Below, in pieces: positions 1,668 to 13,876 of a stretch of 24,660 bases of DNA (position 1 is the first letter of the stretch; each line of letters opens with the position of its first letter). A program made the position numbers and the translations under genes. Below the pieces are notes generated by a model. The model was not told the origin of the DNA. It was given only the letters and a program-made list of their open reading frames with translations, and made no database searches. Location of the stretch: the UHGV virus genome UHGV-2140017; one strand, 5' to 3'. This stretch comes from a virus.

Positions 1668-2747
1668 CTAAGGTAAGGGATTTGGCTGTGGTGGCTGGTG
1701 CTCCAGCAAATTACGCATTTCACTGACCGTCTGTTCAAATCTCCCGGTTTCCAGTTCGACACCTAGTCCCCTTCGCCCGAGAAGAGCAGCCTGTTTGAGC
1801 GTTGAACCTGATCCAAAAAAGAAATCAGCTACAACATCACCCGGGCGGCTACTCGCTGTGATTATCTGCTCCAGCATATCCGCAGGCTTTTCACATGGGT
1901 GTTTACCTGGATAAAACTGAACAGGCTTATGAGTCCAGACGTCGGTATATGGCACTGTGACCGATACGCTGAATGGTCGCCGTAAACGGTAATACTCCTG
2001 CTGGAGTTCAGAATATTTTCTGCTCAACGATTGCCAGGTAGCGACAAGCTGGTGGTGAGGTTTTCCCAGTTCGTTGCGTGAGTGCTTATCCATGGCGATT
2101 TTTTGAAACAGAGCCTGCAACTTCAAATAATCGGCTTCATTCGGCAGTTGCCACTGGCTAAGGCCAAACCAGTGGGAAACCATATTTTTCTTACCTGTGG
2201 CTTCTGCAATCTGGGCCGACGTCACGCCAAGAGATTCCCGTGCATCACGGAAGTAAGAAATTAAAGGCGTCATGACGTGTTGCTTTAACTCATTACACTT
2301 TGCGGCATATCCATCGTCTTTGGGCCTGTATGGCCCCTGATAATGGTCGGCAAAAATGATACGCTCAGTGGCCGGGAAATAAGCGCGTAAGCTCTCCTTA
2401 TTGCAGCCGTTCCATCGCCCTGATGGCTTAGCCCAGATGATATGGTTGAGCAGGTTAAACCGCTCTCTCACCAACAGCTCAATATCCGCTGCCAGGCGGT
2501 GCCCACAGAACAGATACATGCTGCCGGCAGGTTTTAACACTCGCCAGAACTGTGCCAGACAGCTATCCAGCCAACGTAAATAGTCCTCGTCCCCCTTCCA
2601 TTGGTTATCCCAGCCGTTTGGCTTCACCTTAAAATAAGGCGGATCGGTAACAATAAGATCAATGGAGTTATCGGGTAGCGATGGGAGGTATTGCAGGCAA
2701 TCAGCATTGATTAATTCAATACTGGATATTTTTACAGTATTTTTCAT
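1668..2747 (-). CDS. Beta-class DNA methyltransferase (PF01555-like), predicted N6-adenine specific
   Basis: Motif IV DLIVTDPPY near the N-terminus and motif I DFFFGSGSTLKQAALLGRRGLGVELE near the C-terminus; IV-before-I order is the beta class and DPPY favours N6-adenine. ATG start. Confidence 0.85.
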   Translation of the reverse strand: MKNTVKISSIELINADCLQYLPSLPDNSIDLIVTDPPYFKVKPNGWDNQWKGDEDYLRWLDSCLAQFWRVLKPAGSMYLFCGHRLAADIELLVRERFNLLNHIIWAKPSGRWNGCNKESLRAYFPATERIIFADHYQGPYRPKDDGYAAKCNELKQHVMTPLISYFRDARESLGVTSAQIAEATGKKNMVSHWFGLSQWQLPNEADYLKLQALFQKIAMDKHSRNELGKPHHQLVATWQSLSRKYSELQQEYYRLRRPFSVSVTVPYTDVWTHKPVQFYPGKHPCEKPADMLEQIITASSRPGDVVADFFFGSGSTLKQAALLGRRGLGVELETGRFEQTVSEMRNLLEHQPPQPNPLP

Positions 2748-5745: not shown

Positions 5746-6576
5746 TTACTGCGTGACAACGCCAATGAGCTTTAAAAGCTCAGGAAATTTCGATTCGAAG
5801 AAGTGCGGTTGCGTCTCACGTGGATTTGCCGGGCTGGTGATGTTTTTACCGTACAGACAACCTTTTGCCGTAACAGACCAGAATCTTTTCACGCCATTGA
5901 TACCCGTTCGGCTGCGGCGCTCCTTCTGCTCGACTATGCCGTGACCAGCCATAAGGTGATAAGCCTGGTTCGCGGTCATTCTGATGTTGTTAGCTTTAAG
6001 CAAAGCGCTAAGAGACAGCGTTGGTCTGCTGGAACCATCCTGCGCGCCAGCTGGTGCATCAATGGAATATGAAGGCATTAAATCAGGCAGCCCTGCTACC
6101 TGCTGAAGCTTCTGATATGCCCCGAGCTTTGACGAATTAGAGAGATTGAGCATTTTGGCTGCAGATTCCAGGAGGATTATGCCAGCTTGAATACGATCGG
6201 TATTGACGGTTGCAGCCCCAGCAGTGTGGAGCGCGTCAAACGTTCTGATGACCTTCAGATTAAAAACAGCGCTGATCCACATCGCGTAGGCATACACCAA
6301 CTCACGGCAAACATAGGTACCTTGCTCATTTCCGCCGCGGATGACACTTACAGGTTCTGAAATATCCGAGTTGCTATTTTGCAACTCGCCTATCAATTGC
6401 GCAGTTTGTTCGTTGCGGAGCCAGAATGCAGGCTTATGGCGGTCAAGGGAGCCGGAAGCACGATGGAGATCGTTTAGGCAATAACGACCAAGGACATCAC
6501 GACGAACAGAAATACCATCAATAACAAAAAAAGTGTGATTATTGGATGCAGCAGCACCCATGACGTGGTTAGTCAT
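5746..6576 (-). CDS. KilA-N domain protein with ~170 aa C-terminal extension
   Basis: N-terminal FFVIDGISVRRDVLGRYCLNDLHRASG...VIRGGNEQGTYVCRELVYAYAMWIS fits KilA-N. Start at ATG 6576 (MTNHV) preceded by GGAG. Confidence 0.65.
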   Translation of the reverse strand: MTNHVMGAAASNNHTFFVIDGISVRRDVLGRYCLNDLHRASGSLDRHKPAFWLRNEQTAQLIGELQNSNSDISEPVSVIRGGNEQGTYVCRELVYAYAMWISAVFNLKVIRTFDALHTAGAATVNTDRIQAGIILLESAAKMLNLSNSSKLGAYQKLQQVAGLPDLMPSYSIDAPAGAQDGSSRPTLSLSALLKANNIRMTANQAYHLMAGHGIVEQKERRSRTGINGVKRFWSVTAKGCLYGKNITSPANPRETQPHFFESKFPELLKLIGVVTQ

Positions 6577-6664
6577 AGCTTTCTCCATACATTTTTATGT
6601 GACGAAGGGCCTGCACGCCCGTTTCGTTTGCACTCTTTGACATTACTGCCATATCGGCGAACTT

Positions 6665-7063
6665 TCAACCCACAGCTGTACATGTATCCACCACTTTTTG
6701 ATAGCAGACTATGGTGATTTCTACCCTACCTCCTTCGACGATTTCACCCCATTCAATAGCCATACGCTTAACCTGGTTGTCGTCCTCCCAGATACCGGCA
6801 TAAGTCAAAGCATCAAGAAGTGCCTTGTTGAAATTATCCAGGTCACGCCGGCGATAGTCTGGCGGATAGAGAATAATTTCTACCGCTGCTGGCGCGGTAG
6901 ATGGTTTTGGTATTGCACGCAGTTGCTCAATGATCGCTGACCGTACTGCATGTTTGAATTTACGGCCGGCTGCGCTGACAAGGTGTTTACCTTTTGCGGG
7001 CCCCTTATTTGGGGACCGCCAGTAGGTGTTCACGCTGGGTGGGAATGGAAGAATAAATTTCAT
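6665..7063 (-). CDS. rusA: Crossover junction endodeoxyribonuclease RusA (Holliday junction resolvase)
   Basis: PFPPSVNTYW and RRRDLDNFNKALLDALT motifs align with E. coli RusA (PWPPSNNRYY, RRRDLDNLQKAAFDALT). ATG start overlaps the upstream stop (ATGA). Confidence 0.9.
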   Translation of the reverse strand: MKFILPFPPSVNTYWRSPNKGPAKGKHLVSAAGRKFKHAVRSAIIEQLRAIPKPSTAPAAVEIILYPPDYRRRDLDNFNKALLDALTYAGIWEDDNQVKRMAIEWGEIVEGGRVEITIVCYQKVVDTCTAVG

Positions 7064-7536
7064 TCTGCCTCCAGCACTATTTTCAACTCAAACGGAACAT
7101 CTCCTCCGCAATAGCAGAGCGGGCCAAGGTCAGACATGAGGCTCCACAGGGTCACTGACGTATAGCCATTTTCGTCTGTTATCGGGGGCGAAAAGTCCCC
7201 GAAGATCCTCGGGTGCTGGATTCGATTCTGCTCGTGTTGTTTTTCCAAATGTCTGAGGGAAACTTCATTAAGTTTCACTTTTACGATGCTGTTGAGATTG
7301 ACCGATATTTCTCTGGCCAACAGCGAAGGGGTGATACTGATACCGCGAGAAACCCCGCGGGTGATTGTGATAACACCCTTTTTCTCCAACGCCTTGAGGT
7401 GCGTTGCTGCTGCATTGGGGGACCGGCACCCCAGCATGCCGGTCAGTTCGTAAGTTGTAGGCGGAAAACCATGTTTACGCTGATATTCGATCAGGAGGTC
7501 CAGGACCTCCTGCTGCCTTAAGGTCAAGGAAGTCAT
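7060..7536 (-). CDS. LexA-N-terminal-type DNA-binding domain protein without an S24 peptidase domain
   Basis: LTLRQQEVLDLLIEYQRKHGFPPTTYELTGMLGCRSPNAAATHLKALEKKGVITITRGVSRGISI matches the LexA winged-helix domain; C-terminal ~80 aa unrecognised, no Ser/Lys dyad motifs. ATG 7536 overlaps the methyltransferase stop (ATGA). Confidence 0.6.
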   Translation of the reverse strand: MTSLTLRQQEVLDLLIEYQRKHGFPPTTYELTGMLGCRSPNAAATHLKALEKKGVITITRGVSRGISITPSLLAREISVNLNSIVKVKLNEVSLRHLEKQHEQNRIQHPRIFGDFSPPITDENGYTSVTLWSLMSDLGPLCYCGGDVPFELKIVLEAE

Positions 7537-9503
7537 GCTGCCTGCTCCTCTCTGTTCACGCACATTTCGGGTAAATTGGCGCGAACCAGCGCTTCGGCGA
7601 ACGGCGGCGGGACGGCATTTCCACAGCGCGCAACCTGCTTATCTTTCGCGTATTTCACGCCGCGGTAATCCTGGTCAATGATGTACCACTCGGGGAAGCC
7701 CTGCGCCCGGTAAAGTTCGTGTGGCTGCAGCATGCGCATGCCGATATCAACGATGCGGTAAGTCACTCCGCCGATTTCCACCAGCCCGGTGCATTCCTCT
7801 CCGCAGTATTCCTGCAGGAACGACAGCACCTGCTGCGCTCGCTCTTCGTCATAGTCCTCGACTGCCAGAGTCGTTTTAACCTCGCCTACGTGCTGGCCAC
7901 CAGCAGTGATAGTCGGCATCGGCTCGTCAGTGCGCTGGCCATCGCGGCATGTACCACGGAGCTTGATCAGATGAGACGTAACCATTGCGGCATCAGCCTT
8001 TGTCGTCATGGTTTGCAATGGCTCGCTAACGTCACGTGGCCTGCTCTGCCCAGCGCGACCGCCAACACCAACAATCTGAGCAGTAACCAGCGCATGATGA
8101 TCGACGGTAGTAACTGAATGAGCTGGTTCATCCAAGTCAATACCGGCGCCCTGATAATTCCCGCCATAGTGTTTCGCCAGGAATGCGGATACCAGTTGCG
8201 ATTTACCGCCGCCGCCCGCGGTGATTGTTGCGCTAGGTTCGTCGGCACGGTGTCCGATGCTGGCGCCGAACTGCCGGGCGATAACCGGAGCGACGACACA
8301 GGCGCGCGATTCTTTCATGATGGTGTGAGCGGGTTTATCGAGCGGGCGTGGTTTAGCCTGGTACTCGCTGCCGCCATTGCCAGCCAGGAACGGAGCCAGC
8401 TCTGCTTCAACAATACCCATAGCGTGACCATTCCCGTCCGGGCGCCTGGACGTGCCGGCGGTCACTGTCGGCAACGGATCGGTGACTTCCTGCCCGGTAG
8501 CTCCGGTTCGGAATTTTGTCAGATGAGGTACCGCAATTGCGTAGCCGTGGGTTTTCGTAATCGTCTGTAGCGGATCGTCCAGCGCCTGTCCCCGGAAACA
8601 GTCGTATTTGCCACGTGTCGTTGTGTGATTGCACTTCACAATGAATGGCGAAGCACTTTCGATAACAAAGCGCTGAATGCCGCGGGCAATCCGTTTTAGC
8701 GTATTCTCTGCCAGTGACTTTTTGCGACCGAAGATGCTCGGCGCGGGGATTGACCAGTCTATGCATTCCGCAGCTGTACGCCATGGCTCCAGCTGGCCCG
8801 CCAGCACGGCGGCAGACTTCGGATCCCCGTGCGTGGCTTCCGGCCAGACTATCGGTTTCCCGTCCCGGCGCATCACCATGAAGAACCGCTTACGGATGGT
8901 CGGCGCGCCATAATCGCAGGCGCGCAGCTCGCGAAAATCGACGACATAACCCAGCCCGGCAATTAAGCGCTTGGCCTGCTCGCTATCCGGTGAAAACTCC
9001 AGAAACTCGCAACACTCCACCAGTGCAGGATGATCTGCTGGAATACCGGTGGTAAGCATCCCGACAAATGCATTGAAAGTTTCACCGATGCGTGCCGGAT
9101 CCGGTCGCATTTCTGCCGCGAGTAACGGACCCCATGTTTTGAACTCTTCGACGTTTTCCAGCATCATGACTCGCGGGCCAACATCCAGCGCCCAACGAAT
9201 GACGATCCATGCCAGCCCTCGAATAGCTTTCTCTACTGGTTTAGCACCTTTCGCTTTAGAAAAGTGACGACAGTCAGGCGAGAACCATGCCAGGCCGACA
9301 GGCTTGCCACTGGTAGCGGCTAATGGAGATACATCAAACACACTTTCGCAATAGTGAAGCGTGTCGGGATGGTTAGTGCGGTGCATAGCAACGGCGTTAA
9401 CATCGTGGTTAATCGCGATATCAACGCTACGCCCTATCGCCAGCTCAATACCTGTACTGGCGCCACCGCCACCAGCAAAATTATCGACAATAATCTCACG
9501 CAT
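7533..9503 (-). CDS. DNA (cytosine-5)-methyltransferase, 656 aa, with an expanded repeat-containing variable region
   Basis: C5-MTase motifs in canonical order: I DNFAGGGG, IV-like FSPDCRHFS, VI MMLENV, IX RMLQPHELYRAQGFPEWY, X ARCGNAVPP. Residues ~300-545 hold seven tandem D/E-x-P-x-x-T-[IVM]-T modules. Confidence 0.85.
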   Translation of the reverse strand: MREIIVDNFAGGGGASTGIELAIGRSVDIAINHDVNAVAMHRTNHPDTLHYCESVFDVSPLAATSGKPVGLAWFSPDCRHFSKAKGAKPVEKAIRGLAWIVIRWALDVGPRVMMLENVEEFKTWGPLLAAEMRPDPARIGETFNAFVGMLTTGIPADHPALVECCEFLEFSPDSEQAKRLIAGLGYVVDFRELRACDYGAPTIRKRFFMVMRRDGKPIVWPEATHGDPKSAAVLAGQLEPWRTAAECIDWSIPAPSIFGRKKSLAENTLKRIARGIQRFVIESASPFIVKCNHTTTRGKYDCFRGQALDDPLQTITKTHGYAIAVPHLTKFRTGATGQEVTDPLPTVTAGTSRRPDGNGHAMGIVEAELAPFLAGNGGSEYQAKPRPLDKPAHTIMKESRACVVAPVIARQFGASIGHRADEPSATITAGGGGKSQLVSAFLAKHYGGNYQGAGIDLDEPAHSVTTVDHHALVTAQIVGVGGRAGQSRPRDVSEPLQTMTTKADAAMVTSHLIKLRGTCRDGQRTDEPMPTITAGGQHVGEVKTTLAVEDYDEERAQQVLSFLQEYCGEECTGLVEIGGVTYRIVDIGMRMLQPHELYRAQGFPEWYIIDQDYRGVKYAKDKQVARCGNAVPPPFAEALVRANLPEMCVNREEQAA

Positions 9504-10449
9504 GAGCGGTCCCCCTCATGCTGCCGACCAGCCCACCAGCAACGGTGATGATTTCGCTGGTGGGCACGCGCTCCAGCCACAACTGGTTAATGTGGGCCTT
9601 CAGCTTGTTCTGCTGGGAGAACTCCAGATCCTCTGCGCCTTGTACCTGTCCAAAGACGAGTCCAACTTCCAGTGGCCAGATCCGGGATTCAGGCTCAGCC
9701 AATGATGCAACAGCATCGGGGATGATCACTTCAGGAGACTGAACTGGCGAAACTGGTGACAGGAATTTTCCTGCAGCAAACTCAGCCAGCGCCATACTTG
9801 CGCGCCCTTTTGCTTCCAGCTCAACGCGATCGATATAGCTAAAATGTTCACCGCGCCAGGTCTTATCAAATACCGCAATGGCCCCGGCAAAGAATGCGCT
9901 GGTGGGCTTCTGCTTTTCGTCGGCCGGCACAAACCACGTTGGGAGATCGAATCCAATACGACCACGAATAAACATGATGTGATCGGCATATTCCGGCCAC
10001 CATGTTTCACTTGTTGCTGACTTCACGAGGTAAATGTAACGACCACCCTTTTCACGCTGTTCGGCGGTATAGTTCATAATATGAGTCATGCCAGTGATGG
10101 CTTGTTTTTCATGGTACTGCGAACGGCTGTACGGCGGATTAGCAAAGGCCGCTCCTCCGAGTTCTACCAAACGACCAGACCAGTCCTGCGTCAGCGCATT
10201 ATCTTCAGCGGTATACCATGCCGGACATTTTGTATTGCTGTCGTCTGCAAACAGGTCCAGTACGAGCGGGCCAAACATAGCGTTAATGCCCCAGAACAGC
10301 AGATCTGGTGTCCGCCATTGATCGCCAACCTCTTTCAAATAATGCGCATTACGCTGGCGCTGTTCCTCAAGTGCCAGACAATAAGCGCTGATGGTTTTTG
10401 TTAAAGTTTGCTCTGCTGCGGTCATAGCTTCTTGTACTTCCTGACTCAT
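9496..10449 (-). CDS. Phage Dam-type DNA N6-adenine methyltransferase (PF05869-like) with C-terminal extension
   Basis: W-x-TP...FANPPYS catalytic motif with the flanking pattern of the phage Dam family; ~110 aa unrecognised C-terminal tail. ATG start overlaps the upstream stop (ATGA). Confidence 0.8.
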   Translation of the reverse strand: MSQEVQEAMTAAEQTLTKTISAYCLALEEQRQRNAHYLKEVGDQWRTPDLLFWGINAMFGPLVLDLFADDSNTKCPAWYTAEDNALTQDWSGRLVELGGAAFANPPYSRSQYHEKQAITGMTHIMNYTAEQREKGGRYIYLVKSATSETWWPEYADHIMFIRGRIGFDLPTWFVPADEKQKPTSAFFAGAIAVFDKTWRGEHFSYIDRVELEAKGRASMALAEFAAGKFLSPVSPVQSPEVIIPDAVASLAEPESRIWPLEVGLVFGQVQGAEDLEFSQQNKLKAHINQLWLERVPTSEIITVAGGLVGSMRGTAHA

Positions 10450-10640
10450 AGTTTTCCCCTGCGCTGATCAGCATGAACAAGTGCTCTCAGTAACCAGTAA
10501 CGGCGATCAAAGCTGAAAAGGTCATCTCTGAGGAGTGCATATTTTCTGCGAAAAATAACGTCGTGCTGCCACCAGTAACGCCAGTGATGCAAACACACAA
10601 GGCGCCGGAGACTTATCAAAATCTTCTTCAATCGGAGCAC
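10446..10640 (-). CDS. Hypothetical small protein (64 aa), uncertain
   Basis: Fills the gap between the PerC-like and Dam-type genes and its stop overlaps the Dam ATG, but GTG start, W/R-rich composition and no clear RBS. Confidence 0.25.
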   Translation of the reverse strand: MLRLKKILISLRRLVCLHHWRYWWQHDVIFRRKYALLRDDLFSFDRRYWLLRALVHADQRRGKL

Positions 10641-11086
10641 AAGTCACCTCCGCAGTAATTTCCGGCCAGATAGCATGACCCGGCAGAATCATTCATGTTT
10701 CTGGCGTTTCGAACAGAAGCATTCTTAAGACGCAGGTATCGCTCTCTTGCTTTAACCGTACAGTTGCTGTCACAAAGTTGCTGCCATACCGTCGCCGCAC
10801 GGCGGTAATAGCGTTTCTCTTCCAGCTTTTTGGCTGTCGCTTCAAGGGCAAGAATCTCCCCCGAAAGCCCACCAGGCAGGTACTCTTCAATATCGATGGA
10901 TCCCGCAACGAAGTAGATAAACCCACCAGTAACTTCAACGCTGGCAAGTTCCCCGTCGTAGTACAGGCGATGAACAGCGCTCTTCACTGTTACCGGTTTG
11001 GTTTCAGGAAATGCCGCAGTTATATCGCGCAGCATTTTGCCTGGATTCTTCTCAATAAATTCAAAGATCGACTTGGCTATGTTCAT
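10628..11086 (-). CDS. Putative ANR/PerC-family regulator-like protein
   Basis: C-terminal KLEEKRYYRRAATVWQQLCD resembles the RRAA-x-x-W core I recall for PerC/ANR proteins; N-terminal half looks like a winged helix. ATG overlaps the upstream stop. Confidence 0.4.
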   Translation of the reverse strand: MNIAKSIFEFIEKNPGKMLRDITAAFPETKPVTVKSAVHRLYYDGELASVEVTGGFIYFVAGSIDIEEYLPGGLSGEILALEATAKKLEEKRYYRRAATVWQQLCDSNCTVKARERYLRLKNASVRNARNMNDSAGSCYLAGNYCGGDLCSD

Positions 11087-13243: not shown

Positions 13244-13876
13244 ATGAGCCTTGCAGAACGCGTAAAACAAAAAAGAATCGAACTTGGTCTTACTCAAGAG
13301 CAAGCAGCTGAAAAGGCAGGAATAAGGCAACAATCATGGGCCAGCATTGAGGATGGAAAAACTAAAAAGCCTCGCAACATAGTAGGAATAAGCAAAGCAC
13401 TTAAGTGCGACCCAACATGGTTGATGAACGGTGGGCCTTTCATGGCTCTGGCCGATGTGAATTCAAGGAAAGTACCTTTGATCAGTTACGTCCAGGCTGG
13501 GGCGTTAGCAGAAAAACACCCTATTGATGCATTTGATGGTAGCTTCGAATACATCATGACTGACCTTGATATTTCTGAGTTTACTTTTGCACTAAGGATA
13601 GAAGGTGATTCAATGGAGCCTGACTTTAAAGAAGGCGACATTATCATTGTTGATCCCGAGTTAGAGCCCGTTCCGGGCGAGTTTGTTGTTGCTAAAAATG
13701 GTGAAAATGAGGCTACTTTTAAAAAGTACCGTCCTACATTTACCGATATTTCAGGCCGCCAGCAATATGAACTGGTCCCCCTTAATGACGACTACCCCAC
13801 CATTAATAGCTCTGAACGCCCGTTGAAAATTATCGGCGTAATGGTCGAACATAGAATTTACAGGCGAAAAAGGTAA
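13244..13876 (+). CDS. cI: CI-type phage repressor (HTH plus LexA-like S24 peptidase autocleavage domain)
   Basis: N-terminal HTH LTQEQAAEKAGIRQQSWASIEDGKTKKP; C-terminal S24 features (GDSMEP with catalytic Ser, downstream Lys in ATFKKY). GGAGG RBS. Confidence 0.9.
   Translation: MSLAERVKQKRIELGLTQEQAAEKAGIRQQSWASIEDGKTKKPRNIVGISKALKCDPTWLMNGGPFMALADVNSRKVPLISYVQAGALAEKHPIDAFDGSFEYIMTDLDISEFTFALRIEGDSMEPDFKEGDIIIVDPELEPVPGEFVVAKNGENEATFKKYRPTFTDISGRQQYELVPLNDDYPTINSSERPLKIIGVMVEHRIYRRKR

What the first reader, a model, noticed from the sequence alone, without database searches (positions are those of the whole stretch)
7868..8610. C5-cytosine methyltransferase with seven tandem TRD-like modules (possible hyper-multispecific enzyme)
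Between catalytic motifs VI and IX the 656-aa enzyme carries seven successive modules beginning D/E-x-P-x-x-T-[IVM]-T (DPLQTITK, DPLPTVTA, KPAHTIMK, EPSATITA, EPAHSVTT, EPLQTMTT, EPMPTITA), each followed by a short hydrophobic stretch. This resembles the conserved core of C5-MTase target-recognition domains; multispecific Bacillus phage enzymes (SPR, phi3T) carry several TRDs in series, and seven would be unusually many. Motif IV also reads P-D-C rather than canonical P-C-Q.
Basis: partly seen in the sequence, partly recalled or inferred. Interest (0 to 1): 0.65.

Follow-up and report, generated by a model that had tools for sequence, protein, structure and literature searches.

The report
Phage cytosine methylase with seven recognition-like repeats
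A Klebsiella prophage gene encodes a DNA cytosine-5 methyltransferase whose variable middle is a real array of seven ~33-48-residue repeats, each resembling the core of a target-recognition domain, so the enzyme may methylate several DNA sequences to defeat host restriction; this is untested, and seven repeats is normal for its large, uncharacterised family.

Summary
ORF 7533-9503 (-) encodes a 656-aa C5-MTase (PF00145). It has seven [DEK]-P-x-x-[TS]-[IVM] motifs at aa 310-533, against 0.015 expected by chance. Motif IV reads S-P-D-C.

The repeats are true homologous units. A family-derived module HMM scores them 16-38 bits; the best of 500 shuffles scores 5.

Each junction reads strand / G-x-x-G-Q loop / P-x-x-T-[IV]-T / G-G loop / strand. 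M.HhaI's TRD core has the same order (GQ237, R240, T250-L251, GGG). The TRDs of the Bacillus phage multispecific enzymes have the same 30-48-aa spacing.

Relatives 85-98% identical differ by exact one-unit, in-register indels (8, 7 or 6 units). Signature unit types are never duplicated within a protein.

Seven is not exceptional. The family has more than 2,400 50%-identity clusters in phages of Proteobacteria and Actinobacteria, with 2-12 units (mode 7-8). Most close Klebsiella relatives have eight.

AlphaFold2 gave no confident fold for the array in two attempts. No family member has a known specificity.

Multispecificity is therefore the best-supported inference, at about 50%, and is not shown. 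I rate this a new variant of a known kind.

The parts
7533..9503 (-). Complete gene for the 656-aa C5-cytosine DNA methyltransferase
   Evidence: ORF list; PF00145 at E 6.5e-19 and 69 bits against a cutoff of 22; 97% identical to Klebsiella phage Kp4866-6
9462..9479 (-). Motif I F-A-G-G-G-G (aa 9-14), SAM binding
   Evidence: Sequence; nearly invariant in the 122-sequence alignment
9258..9281 (-). Motif IV S-P-D-C-R-H-F-S (aa 75-82). Cys78 aligns with the catalytic Cys of P-C-Q; Asp replaces the Pro before Cys
   Evidence: phmmer alignment to 3g7u, 'fspdcrhfs' against 'ggppcqgfs'; S75, P76, D77 and C78 invariant in 122 sequences; the same motif in distant phage homologues
9150..9158 (-). Motif VI E-N-V (aa 116-118)
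   Evidence: Invariant E116, N117, V118
8880..8909 (-). Motif VIII G-A-P-T-I-R-K-R-F-F (aa 199-208)
   Evidence: Aligned to 3g7u 'ygaptirtryf'; R204 and R206 invariant
8481..8576 (-). Repeat unit 1 (aa 310-341, DPLQTITK...)
   Evidence: 33.4 bits with the family module HMM
8337..8480 (-). Repeat unit 2 (aa 342-389, DPLPTVTAG... with a long loop after the T-V-T)
   Evidence: 23.0 bits
8241..8336 (-). Repeat unit 3 (aa 390-421, KPAHTIMK...)
   Evidence: 28.5 bits
8130..8240 (-). Repeat unit 4 (aa 422-458, EPSATITAGGGG...). It contains the junction at about window 8187/8188 where 8-unit relatives carry an extra 117-nt unit
   Evidence: 31.4 bits; protein alignment; DNA alignment with GGTGGCGG[T/G]AAA microhomology
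8025..8129 (-). Repeat unit 5 (aa 459-493, EPAHSVTT... followed by the GGRAGQSRPR loop)
   Evidence: 37.9 bits
7926..8024 (-). Repeat unit 6 (aa 494-526, EPLQTMTT... followed by the RGTCRDGQ loop); this is the unit missing in the 619-aa relative P0042
   Evidence: 37.6 bits
7857..7925 (-). Repeat unit 7 (aa 527-549, EPMPTITAGG...), the last unit
   Evidence: 15.8 bits
7692..7856 (-). Confidently modelled helix (aa 553-567), beta-hairpin and motif IX (G-M-R-M-L-Q-P-H-E-L-Y-R-A-Q-G-F-P, aa 588-604)
   Evidence: AF2 pLDDT 78-94; alignment to 3g7u and DNMT1 motif IX
7602..7625 (-). Motif X C-G-N-A-V-P-P-P (aa 627-634)
9496..10449 (-). Upstream, overlapping gene for a Dam-like N6-adenine MTase (same operon)
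   Evidence: PF05869 at E 7e-43; the same gene order in L013 and L014
1668..2747 (-). Third MTase gene of the same prophage early region (N6/N4 type)
   Evidence: PF01555 at E 8e-40

Best explanation
This is an orphan, prophage-encoded DNA cytosine-5 methyltransferase. It has one catalytic domain (motifs I-VIII and IX-X; Cys78 as nucleophile, Glu116, Arg204 and Arg206). Its variable region is a flexible array of seven diverged mini target-recognition units. The functional unit probably runs strand / G-x-x-G-Q(R) loop ('Loop 1') / P-x-x-T-[IV]-T / G-G loop ('Loop 2') / strand.

Inferred mechanism: one unit at a time docks against the catalytic domain and the major groove, as the single TRD of M.HhaI does and as the alternative TRDs of the Bacillus phage enzymes do. 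The enzyme would then methylate several different short sequences.

The gene sits in the CI-repressed early operon with two further MTases. On that basis it would be expressed on induction and pre-methylate progeny phage DNA against the restriction systems of future hosts.

Shown here: enzyme class, reality and homology of the repeats, TRD-like anatomy, cassette-like gain and loss, and prophage context. Inferred: DNA contact by each unit, one specificity per unit, and the anti-restriction role.
For: - Enzyme class: PF00145 matches above its cutoff. Catalytic motifs are invariant across 122 homologues. The AF2 catalytic domain has pLDDT 80-98, and its Foldseek hits are 3g7u, DNMT1 and M.HhaI at E ~1e-8.
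- Repeats are real: 7 motifs against 0.015 expected; module HMM scores of 16-38 bits against a shuffle maximum of 5.
- TRD-like anatomy: M.HhaI residues 232-270, VGKGGQGERIYSTRGIAITLSAYGGGIFAKTGGYLV, carry GQ..R, then TL, then GGG, then a strand, in the same order as each unit junction. PMC2790894 describes the TRD as Loop 1 + conserved TL + Loop 2.
- Match to known tandem TRDs: SPR, rho11s, H2 and the phi3T-like enzyme have 3, 4, 4 and 2 [SA]-x-T-[ILV] units at 30-48-aa spacing, each followed by a hydrophobic strand.
- Scaffold versus loops: in the module profile, P2, T5, [VI]6, T7, L14, V15, L19 and G28 are conserved, while the positions between them vary.
- Natural one-unit, in-register indels: 8, 7 or 6 units in Klebsiella proteins 85-98% identical, including a 117-nt in-frame indel; 3, 4 or 5 units in Vibrio relatives.
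- Non-redundancy: strict signature unit types are never duplicated in a protein. Observed 0, against 10.7±2.7 expected in 150 representatives and 75±6 in 283 proteins.
- Variable order: some signature types occur in both orders, for example C/I 17:19 and A/C 50:19.
- Context: a lambdoid early operon with Dam-like and N6/N4 MTases.
Against: - No member of this family has an experimentally known specificity in anything I could search.
- AF2 gives pLDDT 22-35 for aa 288-549 despite 30-120 aligned sequences per column. It gives 25-47 for the array of a 3-unit Vibrio homologue. No fold or DNA-facing geometry could be shown.
- The module HMM hits the Bacillus TRDs only marginally (i-E 0.01-0.15 at Z=1), and a unit profile finds nothing in the PDB. 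The link to proven TRDs therefore rests on a short motif and on architecture.
- The units are much more regular than Bacillus TRDs, which is also what a structural repeat would look like.
- Units within one loose 'type' are no better conserved than the catalytic domain (0.31-0.48 against 0.52 identity).
- Bisulfite methylomes of 14 K. pneumoniae strains show only CCWGG and MTCGAK (PMC9684165). This is weak evidence, because I did not check whether those strains carry the gene, and a prophage early gene should be silent in lysogens.
Confidence: 0.5

Rival explanations
1. The repeats together form one elongated beta-hairpin or solenoid-like DNA-binding domain. It would give a single specificity, perhaps long or degenerate, or non-specific DNA tracking or processivity. 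The number of units would tune affinity or reach and would not set the number of targets.
For: - The units are very regular, with a 33-aa mode and a shared consensus, like structural repeats.
- Several signature types keep a fixed order: B early, G then H late, and C before K.
- The terminal units are the most conserved; type F has 0.63 identity.
- Similarity to proven TRDs is statistically marginal.
Against: - A stable repeat domain with 30-120 sequences per column would normally be modelled by AF2, but it was not, in two runs.
- The unit count is open-ended (2-12), and close relatives differ by single units.
- Signature types are never duplicated, although tandem duplication is the usual way structural repeats grow.
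- Every unit retains the full Loop 1-TL-Loop 2 set that a single TRD needs only once.
Confidence: 0.3
2. The array is a flexible, mostly disordered spacer or protein-interaction region with no role in DNA recognition. Specificity would come only from the last unit and the segment before motif IX.
For: - pLDDT is below 50 over the whole array in both AF2 models.
- The last unit plus the hairpin before motif IX is the part most like the corresponding segment of the Bacillus phage (SPR-type) enzymes, 'EPxxTVxTxDRxG...'.
Against: - Spacers do not keep an invariant P-x-x-T-[IV]-T plus a hydrophobic strand pattern across thousands of proteins from Proteobacteria to Actinobacteria.
- Linker signatures such as GYGERxGQAPR and GGRAGQSRPR recur in distant hosts.
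- Indels are always in register.
Confidence: 0.1
3. The enzyme is catalytically atypical: inactive, or carrying out chemistry other than plain C5 methylation. The basis is that motif IV is P-D-C rather than P-C-Q and that the motif II Glu is replaced by Asn32-His33.
For: - S-P-[DE]-C and N32-H33 are invariant family features that depart from the PF00145 consensus.
- The protein scores below the NCBIfam dcm cutoff, 45 against 100.65 bits.
Against: - The nucleophile Cys78, ENV, R-x-R and motifs I, IX and X are all conserved.
- The family is very large and under clear purifying selection.
- The fold matches active C5-MTases.
- This rival is not exclusive of the others.
Confidence: 0.08

Closest known systems
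Multispecific C5-MTases of temperate Bacillus phages (M.SPRI, M.Phi3TI, M.Rho11sI, M.H2I, M.SPBetaI) and M.BssHII
   Same: - Phage- or prophage-encoded orphan C5-MTase with one catalytic core.
- The region between motifs VIII and IX holds several consecutive short units, each with a T-[ILV] dipeptide, a loop and a hydrophobic strand, spaced 30-48 aa apart. I verified this on the real SPR, rho11s, H2 and phi3T-like sequences.
- The last unit leads into motif IX in the same way: 'EPxxTVxTxDRxG..Y.I...R.LTP.E'.
- The number of units varies between related enzymes.
   Different: - The catalytic cores are only distantly related. Motif IV is S-P-D-C-[KR]-H-F-S, not S-P-C-Q-S-F-S, and the motif II Glu is Asn-His.
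- This enzyme has 7 units, and its family 2-12. I counted 2-4 T-[ILV] units in the Bacillus enzymes; from my own knowledge, up to five targets have been reported for M.BssHII.
- The units are far more regular, with a 33-aa consensus.
- The hosts are Proteobacteria and Actinobacteria.
- Specificities are unknown.
- The sequence match of the units to Bacillus TRDs is marginal.
M.HhaI (GCGC) and other monospecific C5-MTases with solved TRDs
   Same: - The catalytic fold matches (Foldseek E ~1e-7).
- The element order of one unit junction matches the M.HhaI TRD core: GQ237..R240 (Loop 1), T250-L251, S-A-Y-G-G-G (Loop 2), then a beta-strand (PMC2790894).
   Different: M.HhaI has one such unit inside a compact ~80-aa small domain. 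Here the unit is repeated seven times, and no compact domain could be modelled.
3g7u, the putative DNA modification MTase of E. coli prophage CP-933R
   Same: It is the best solved-structure match by both sequence (E 8e-9) and fold (E 1e-8), and it is also a prophage-encoded orphan C5-MTase.
   Different: It is 376 aa with the canonical G-P-P-C-Q motif. Only the conserved catalytic motifs align; the query's repeat array is skipped in the alignment (aa 211-589 of the query against about 150 residues of 3g7u), so 3g7u has no comparable array.

Membership tests
DNA (cytosine-5) methyltransferase, PF00145 | Profile match above the curated threshold | tested here: met
   PF00145 at 69 bits against a cutoff of 22, E 6.5e-19, in three stretches. 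The NCBIfam dcm superfamily model TIGR00675 scores only 45 bits against a cutoff of 100.65.
DNA (cytosine-5) methyltransferase, PF00145 | Motif I F-x-G-x-G; motif IV catalytic Cys (canonically P-C-Q); motif VI E-N-V; motif VIII (Q)-x-R-x-R; motifs IX and X (G-N-[AS]-V) | tested here: met
   F9-A-G-G-G-G, C78, E116-N-V, R204-K-R206 and G628-N-A-V-P are present and invariant in 122 homologues. One deviation: the residue before the Cys is Asp (P-D-C), and the motif II Glu is Asn32.
DNA (cytosine-5) methyltransferase, PF00145 | Rossmann-like catalytic fold of C5-MTases | tested here: met
   AF2 pLDDT is 80-98 for aa 1-287 and 550-655. The top 50 Foldseek PDB hits listed are cytosine-5 methyltransferase-fold enzymes, including 3g7u, DNMT1, MET1, M.HhaI and M.HaeIII.
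DNA (cytosine-5) methyltransferase, PF00145 | Transfers a methyl group to C5 of cytosine in DNA | not testable with these tools
   This needs LC-MS, bisulfite or restriction-protection assays.
Multispecific C5-MTases (SPR/phi3T type) | Several TRDs arranged contiguously in the variable region between motifs VIII and IX | tested here: inconclusive
   Seven contiguous units lie in that position, with TRD-like elements and spacing. However, similarity to proven TRDs is limited to a short motif (HMM i-E 0.01-0.15), and no fold was obtained.
Multispecific C5-MTases (SPR/phi3T type) | Individual TRDs can be removed or exchanged without destroying the enzyme | tested here: inconclusive
   Natural one-unit deletion and insertion variants are common and keep an intact frame. 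Whether those variants are active is unknown.
Multispecific C5-MTases (SPR/phi3T type) | Methylates two or more unrelated target sequences, one per TRD | not testable with these tools
   No methylome or biochemical data were found for any family member.
Multispecific C5-MTases (SPR/phi3T type) | Close sequence relationship of the catalytic core to the Bacillus phage enzymes | tested here: not met
   The core motifs differ (S-P-D-C-K-H-F-S against S-P-C-Q-S-F-S). The window protein's phage homologues and the SPR query's homologues are separate sets apart from generic PF00145 similarity. This is a separate lineage.

The most novel reading that the evidence does not exclude
The 33-aa unit is an autonomous, portable DNA-reading cassette. 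Each signature type (for example GYGERxGQAPR, GGRAGQSRPR, RGxCRDGQ, FRTGATGQ) would specify its own short target, so family members would methylate 5-12 different sequences with one active site. The non-redundant, reshuffled unit sets would then be a readable 'code' of phage anti-restriction specificity. That would be far beyond the 2-5 targets known for Bacillus enzymes, and it would offer a natural scaffold for programmable cytosine methylation.
Probability: 0.2. Interest if true: 0.85.

Novelty: new variant of a known kind. Interest (0 to 1): 0.6.

Why it matters
To my knowledge, multispecific C5-MTases are known only from a handful of Bacillus phages studied in the 1980s-90s, with 2-5 targets. 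If this family works the same way, tandem-TRD multispecificity is not a Bacillus curiosity. It would be a widespread phage anti-restriction strategy, found in more than 2,400 50%-identity clusters with 2-12 units, in Klebsiella, Burkholderia, Vibrio, Pseudomonas, Rhizobiales, Rhodobacterales and actinophages.

The natural 6-, 7- and 8-unit Klebsiella variants that are 85-98% identical form a ready-made deletion series. They could assign a target to each unit with three methylome experiments.

There is also a practical side. Such enzymes could explain why some Klebsiella phages and induced prophage DNA resist many restriction enzymes, which is relevant to phage therapy and to 5mC-dependent restriction. 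The small units might be engineered as specificity cassettes.

Tried and rejected
- megablast of the gene against 5,426 complete E. coli genomes found no match; this is a Klebsiella/Raoultella prophage gene.
- A profile of the eight re-registered units searched against all PDB sequences returned only chance hits, such as IGFBP-4 at E 0.18.
- The family module HMM searched against the SPR, rho11s, H2 and phi3T enzymes hit the right places (the PTITT and EPAFTVNT units) but only marginally. It is not usable as proof of homology.
- AlphaFold2 on the window protein with a 122-sequence alignment left the array unmodelled. I checked that this was not due to an empty alignment. I repeated the run on a 3-unit Vibrio homologue with a homogeneous alignment, and the array was again unmodelled.
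- I tested whether unit 'types' are conserved cassettes that are better preserved than the catalytic domain. This was rejected for the loose Louvain types: 0.31-0.48 against 0.52 identity, with a between-type baseline of 0.31. I therefore based the order and redundancy statistics on strict signature motifs only.
- I considered a closed beta-propeller-like fold. It is unlikely, because the unit count is open-ended (2-12) and close relatives differ by single units.
- DNA-level repeat search found only ~70% similarity over ~27 nt at the motif, so these are not recent tandem duplications.
- Six full-text literature searches found no paper describing this family or its specificity. The Trautner 1996 TRD-size paper is not held.
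Full report
**1. What is there**

Window 7533-9503 (-) is a 656-aa ORF. It matches PF00145 (C-5 cytosine DNA methylase) at 69 bits against a cutoff of 22. The match covers only the N-terminal core and short C-terminal stretches. The NCBIfam dcm model is below its cutoff.

These map to window 7905-8576. The strict pattern [DEK]P..[TS][IVM][TMK] occurs 7 times, against a mean of 0.015 and a maximum of 2 in 20,000 shuffles. Aligned on each other, the units share E/D-P-x-x-T-[IV]-T, a loop of variable length, a hydrophobic strand, and a Gly/Gln-rich linker. At the DNA level they are only ~70% alike over ~27 nt, so the duplications are ancient.

Motif IV reads S-P-D-C-R-H-F-S, with Cys78 aligned to the catalytic Cys of G-P-P-C-Q-G-F-S in 3g7u.

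**2. Enzyme class**

Motifs I (FAGGGG), IV (Cys78), VI (ENV), VIII (R204/R206), IX and X (GNAVPP) are present and invariant or nearly so in 122 homologues.

AlphaFold2 models aa 1-287 and 550-655 at pLDDT ~80-98. Foldseek against the PDB returns 3g7u (prophage CP-933R MTase), DNMT1, MET1, M.HhaI and M.HaeIII at E 1e-8 to 1e-6.

P-[DE]-C and Asn32-His33 in place of the motif II Glu are family signatures. They are not lesions of this gene.

**3. Context**

The window is a lambdoid Klebsiella prophage. The protein is 97% identical to that of Klebsiella phage Kp4866-6 and 85-98% identical to many Klebsiella/Raoultella proteins. There is no match in E. coli genomes.

The gene lies in the leftward early operon, opposite a CI-like repressor gene (13244-13876 +). 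The operon order is:
- CII-like protein
- replication protein
- Dam-like PF05869 MTase (9496-10449, overlapping the start of the C5-MTase gene)
- the C5-MTase
- a LexA-DNA-binding-domain protein
- RusA
- KilA-N
- DUF968
- a PF01555 N6/N4 MTase (1668-2747)

The same order is seen around an 8-unit relative. Three MTases in an induction-dependent operon fit self-protection of progeny DNA. [quoted passage not shown]

**4. The family**

An exhaustive phmmer search of 1.84 billion 50%-identity representatives finds 8,213 hits at E<=1e-3 and 2,495 at E<=1e-30. Lengths range from ~460 to >1,100 aa.

Phage members occur in Burkholderia, Vibrio, Pseudoalteromonas, Pseudomonas, Ruegeria, Rhizobium and Aeromonas, and more distantly in Gordonia, Mycobacterium and Arthrobacter phages. 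The proteobacterial phage homologues read in full carry S-P-D-C; the Gordonia one carries S-P-E-C.

An HMM iterated from the units has the consensus EPLPTVTAGNHHALVAAFLVKYYGGSVGQSVDEPLD. It finds 2-12 units per protein, with mode 7-8 in 283 proteins and a start-to-start spacing mode of 33 aa. With this family HMM, the seven units of the window protein score 15.8-37.9 bits, against a maximum of 5.0 in 500 shuffles.

Seven is therefore the family norm. Among the 120 closest clusters, 89 have eight units, 30 have seven and 1 has six.

**5. Are the units TRD-like?**

PMC2790894 describes the C5-MTase TRD as two recognition loops around a conserved T-L dipeptide.

I verified M.HhaI residues 232-270 against the PDB: VGKGGQGERIYSTRGIAITLSAYGGGIFAKTGGYLV. 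The order is G-Q237..R240, then T250-L251, then G-G-G, then a strand. Each unit junction here has the same order. One example is GVGGRAGQSRPRDVSEPLQTMTTKADAAMVTSHL. The Q-to-T distance is 8-13 residues, against 13 in M.HhaI.

I retrieved the real Bacillus phage enzymes. SPR has T-[ILV] units at aa 280, 310 and 358. rho11s and H2 have them at 289, 336, 377 and 422. The phi3T-like enzyme has them at 315 and 362. Each is followed by a loop and a hydrophobic strand.

The last unit runs into motif IX in the same way in both groups: 'EPxxTVxTxDRxG...Y.I....R.LTP.E'.

In the module profile, P2, T5, [VI]6, T7, L14, V15, L19, G24 and G28 are conserved. The positions between them vary, giving a scaffold-plus-loops pattern.

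The caveat is that direct statistical similarity to the Bacillus TRDs is marginal (i-E 0.01-0.15), and a unit profile finds nothing in the PDB.

**6. Do the units behave as cassettes?**

- Klebsiella proteins 85-98% identical to the window protein differ by exact single units. P0001 (695 aa) has an extra VVPTLIQTGYGERPGQAPRVPGLDKPLGTVVAGGGKHAV. P0042 (619 aa) lacks RAGQSRPRDVSEPLQTMTTKADAAMVTSHLIKLRGTC.
- At the DNA level the 8-to-7 difference is one 117-nt in-frame indel between GGTGGCGG[T/G]AAA microhomologies. It lies in register between neighbouring units, and it removes exactly one Loop 1-T[IV]-Loop 2 set.
- Vibrio relatives come in 3-, 4- and 5-unit forms (~472, ~504 and ~540 aa), with junctions inside the conserved ALVT strand.
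- Using strict linker signatures (GYGERxGQxPR, GGRAxQSRPR, RG[ST]CxxGQ and others), no signature is ever duplicated in one protein. The observed count is 0. Random dealing would give 10.7±2.7 among 150 representatives (minimum 3 in 2,000 shuffles) and 75±6 among 283 proteins.
- Some signatures keep a fixed order, while others occur in both orders or replace each other at one slot, for example BIJAGH and BIJCGH.

Non-redundancy and in-register loss and gain are expected if each unit supplies a distinct function. They are not expected of a purely structural repeat. The shuffle control ignores phylogenetic relatedness, so the size of the effect is indicative only.

**7. What did not work**

AF2 left aa 288-549 at pLDDT 22-35, although 30-120 sequences cover those columns. 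A 3-unit Vibrio homologue with a homogeneous alignment gave pLDDT 25-47 for its array. This is compatible with units that order only when docked on DNA, but that is an inference.

Loose clustering of units into 'types' showed within-type identity of 0.31-0.48, which is not above catalytic-domain identity of 0.52. I therefore make no claim that cassettes are better conserved than the core.

Bisulfite methylomes of 14 K. pneumoniae strains list only CCWGG and MTCGAK (PMC9684165). This is weak evidence, because carriage of the gene in those strains was not checked and a prophage early gene should be silent in lysogens.

**8. Verdict**

The protein is a bona fide C5-MTase of a large, uncharacterised phage lineage. 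Its variable region is an array of TRD-core-like units that are gained and lost as cassettes.

- The most likely mechanism (about 0.5) is that of the Bacillus phage multispecific enzymes: one active site served by alternative recognition units, giving several methylated targets for anti-restriction.
- The main rival (about 0.3) is a single composite DNA-binding domain.
- Spacer (about 0.1) and atypical chemistry (about 0.08) are minor rivals.

The lineage is not a member of the Bacillus enzyme family by descent of its core, but it probably works like it.

Novelty: a new variant of a known kind. I found no description of it in the searchable literature. REBASE could not be consulted.

Noticed in passing
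window 1668-2747 (-), 7533-9503 (-), 9496-10449 (-): One prophage early region carries three DNA methyltransferase genes of three classes: PF01555 N6/N4, C5, and PF05869 Dam-like. This looks like an anti-restriction arsenal.
   Followed up: partly
window 7060-7563 (-): A 167-aa protein has a LexA DNA-binding domain (PF01726, E 4.5e-20) but no S24 peptidase domain. Its start overlaps the C5-MTase stop by 31 nt. The pairing is conserved next to the 8-unit relative (L013/L014). It could be a regulator or an SOS-mimic; its function is unknown.
   Followed up: no
P0321 (1148 aa), P0378 (1124 aa), P0381 (1019 aa): Some family members carry a Hint/intein domain (PF13403) inserted in the methyltransferase.
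   Followed up: no
window ~9405-9410 (aa 32-33) and the homologues in alignment A3: The motif II glutamate that binds the SAM ribose in canonical C5-MTases is replaced by an invariant Asn32-His33 (A-I-N-H-D), alongside the S-P-D-C motif IV. The core is unusual but conserved.
   Followed up: partly
P0104 (679 aa), alignment A1 columns 130-155: One close relative has 8- and 13-aa insertions in the catalytic domain between motifs VI and VIII, in a region that AF2 models confidently in the window protein.
   Followed up: no
NC_019704.1 Enterobacteria phage mEp237 36084-36440 (hit H30): The mEp237 'DNA methyltransferase' shares only the C-terminal 119 aa (81% identity) with this protein. That suggests mosaic exchange of the C-terminal part between phage MTase genes.
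   Followed up: no
window 5746-6588 (-) compared with L013 6046-6900 and L014 6046-6870: The slot after rusA holds a KilA-N protein here and in L014, but an AntA-domain protein in L013. This is ordinary lambdoid mosaicism next to the MTase operon.
   Followed up: no
window 10628-11086 (-): A 152-aa ORF between the replication gene and the Dam-like gene has no convincing family match; the only hit is a sub-threshold DsrD-like winged-helix match at E 7.6e-4.
   Followed up: no
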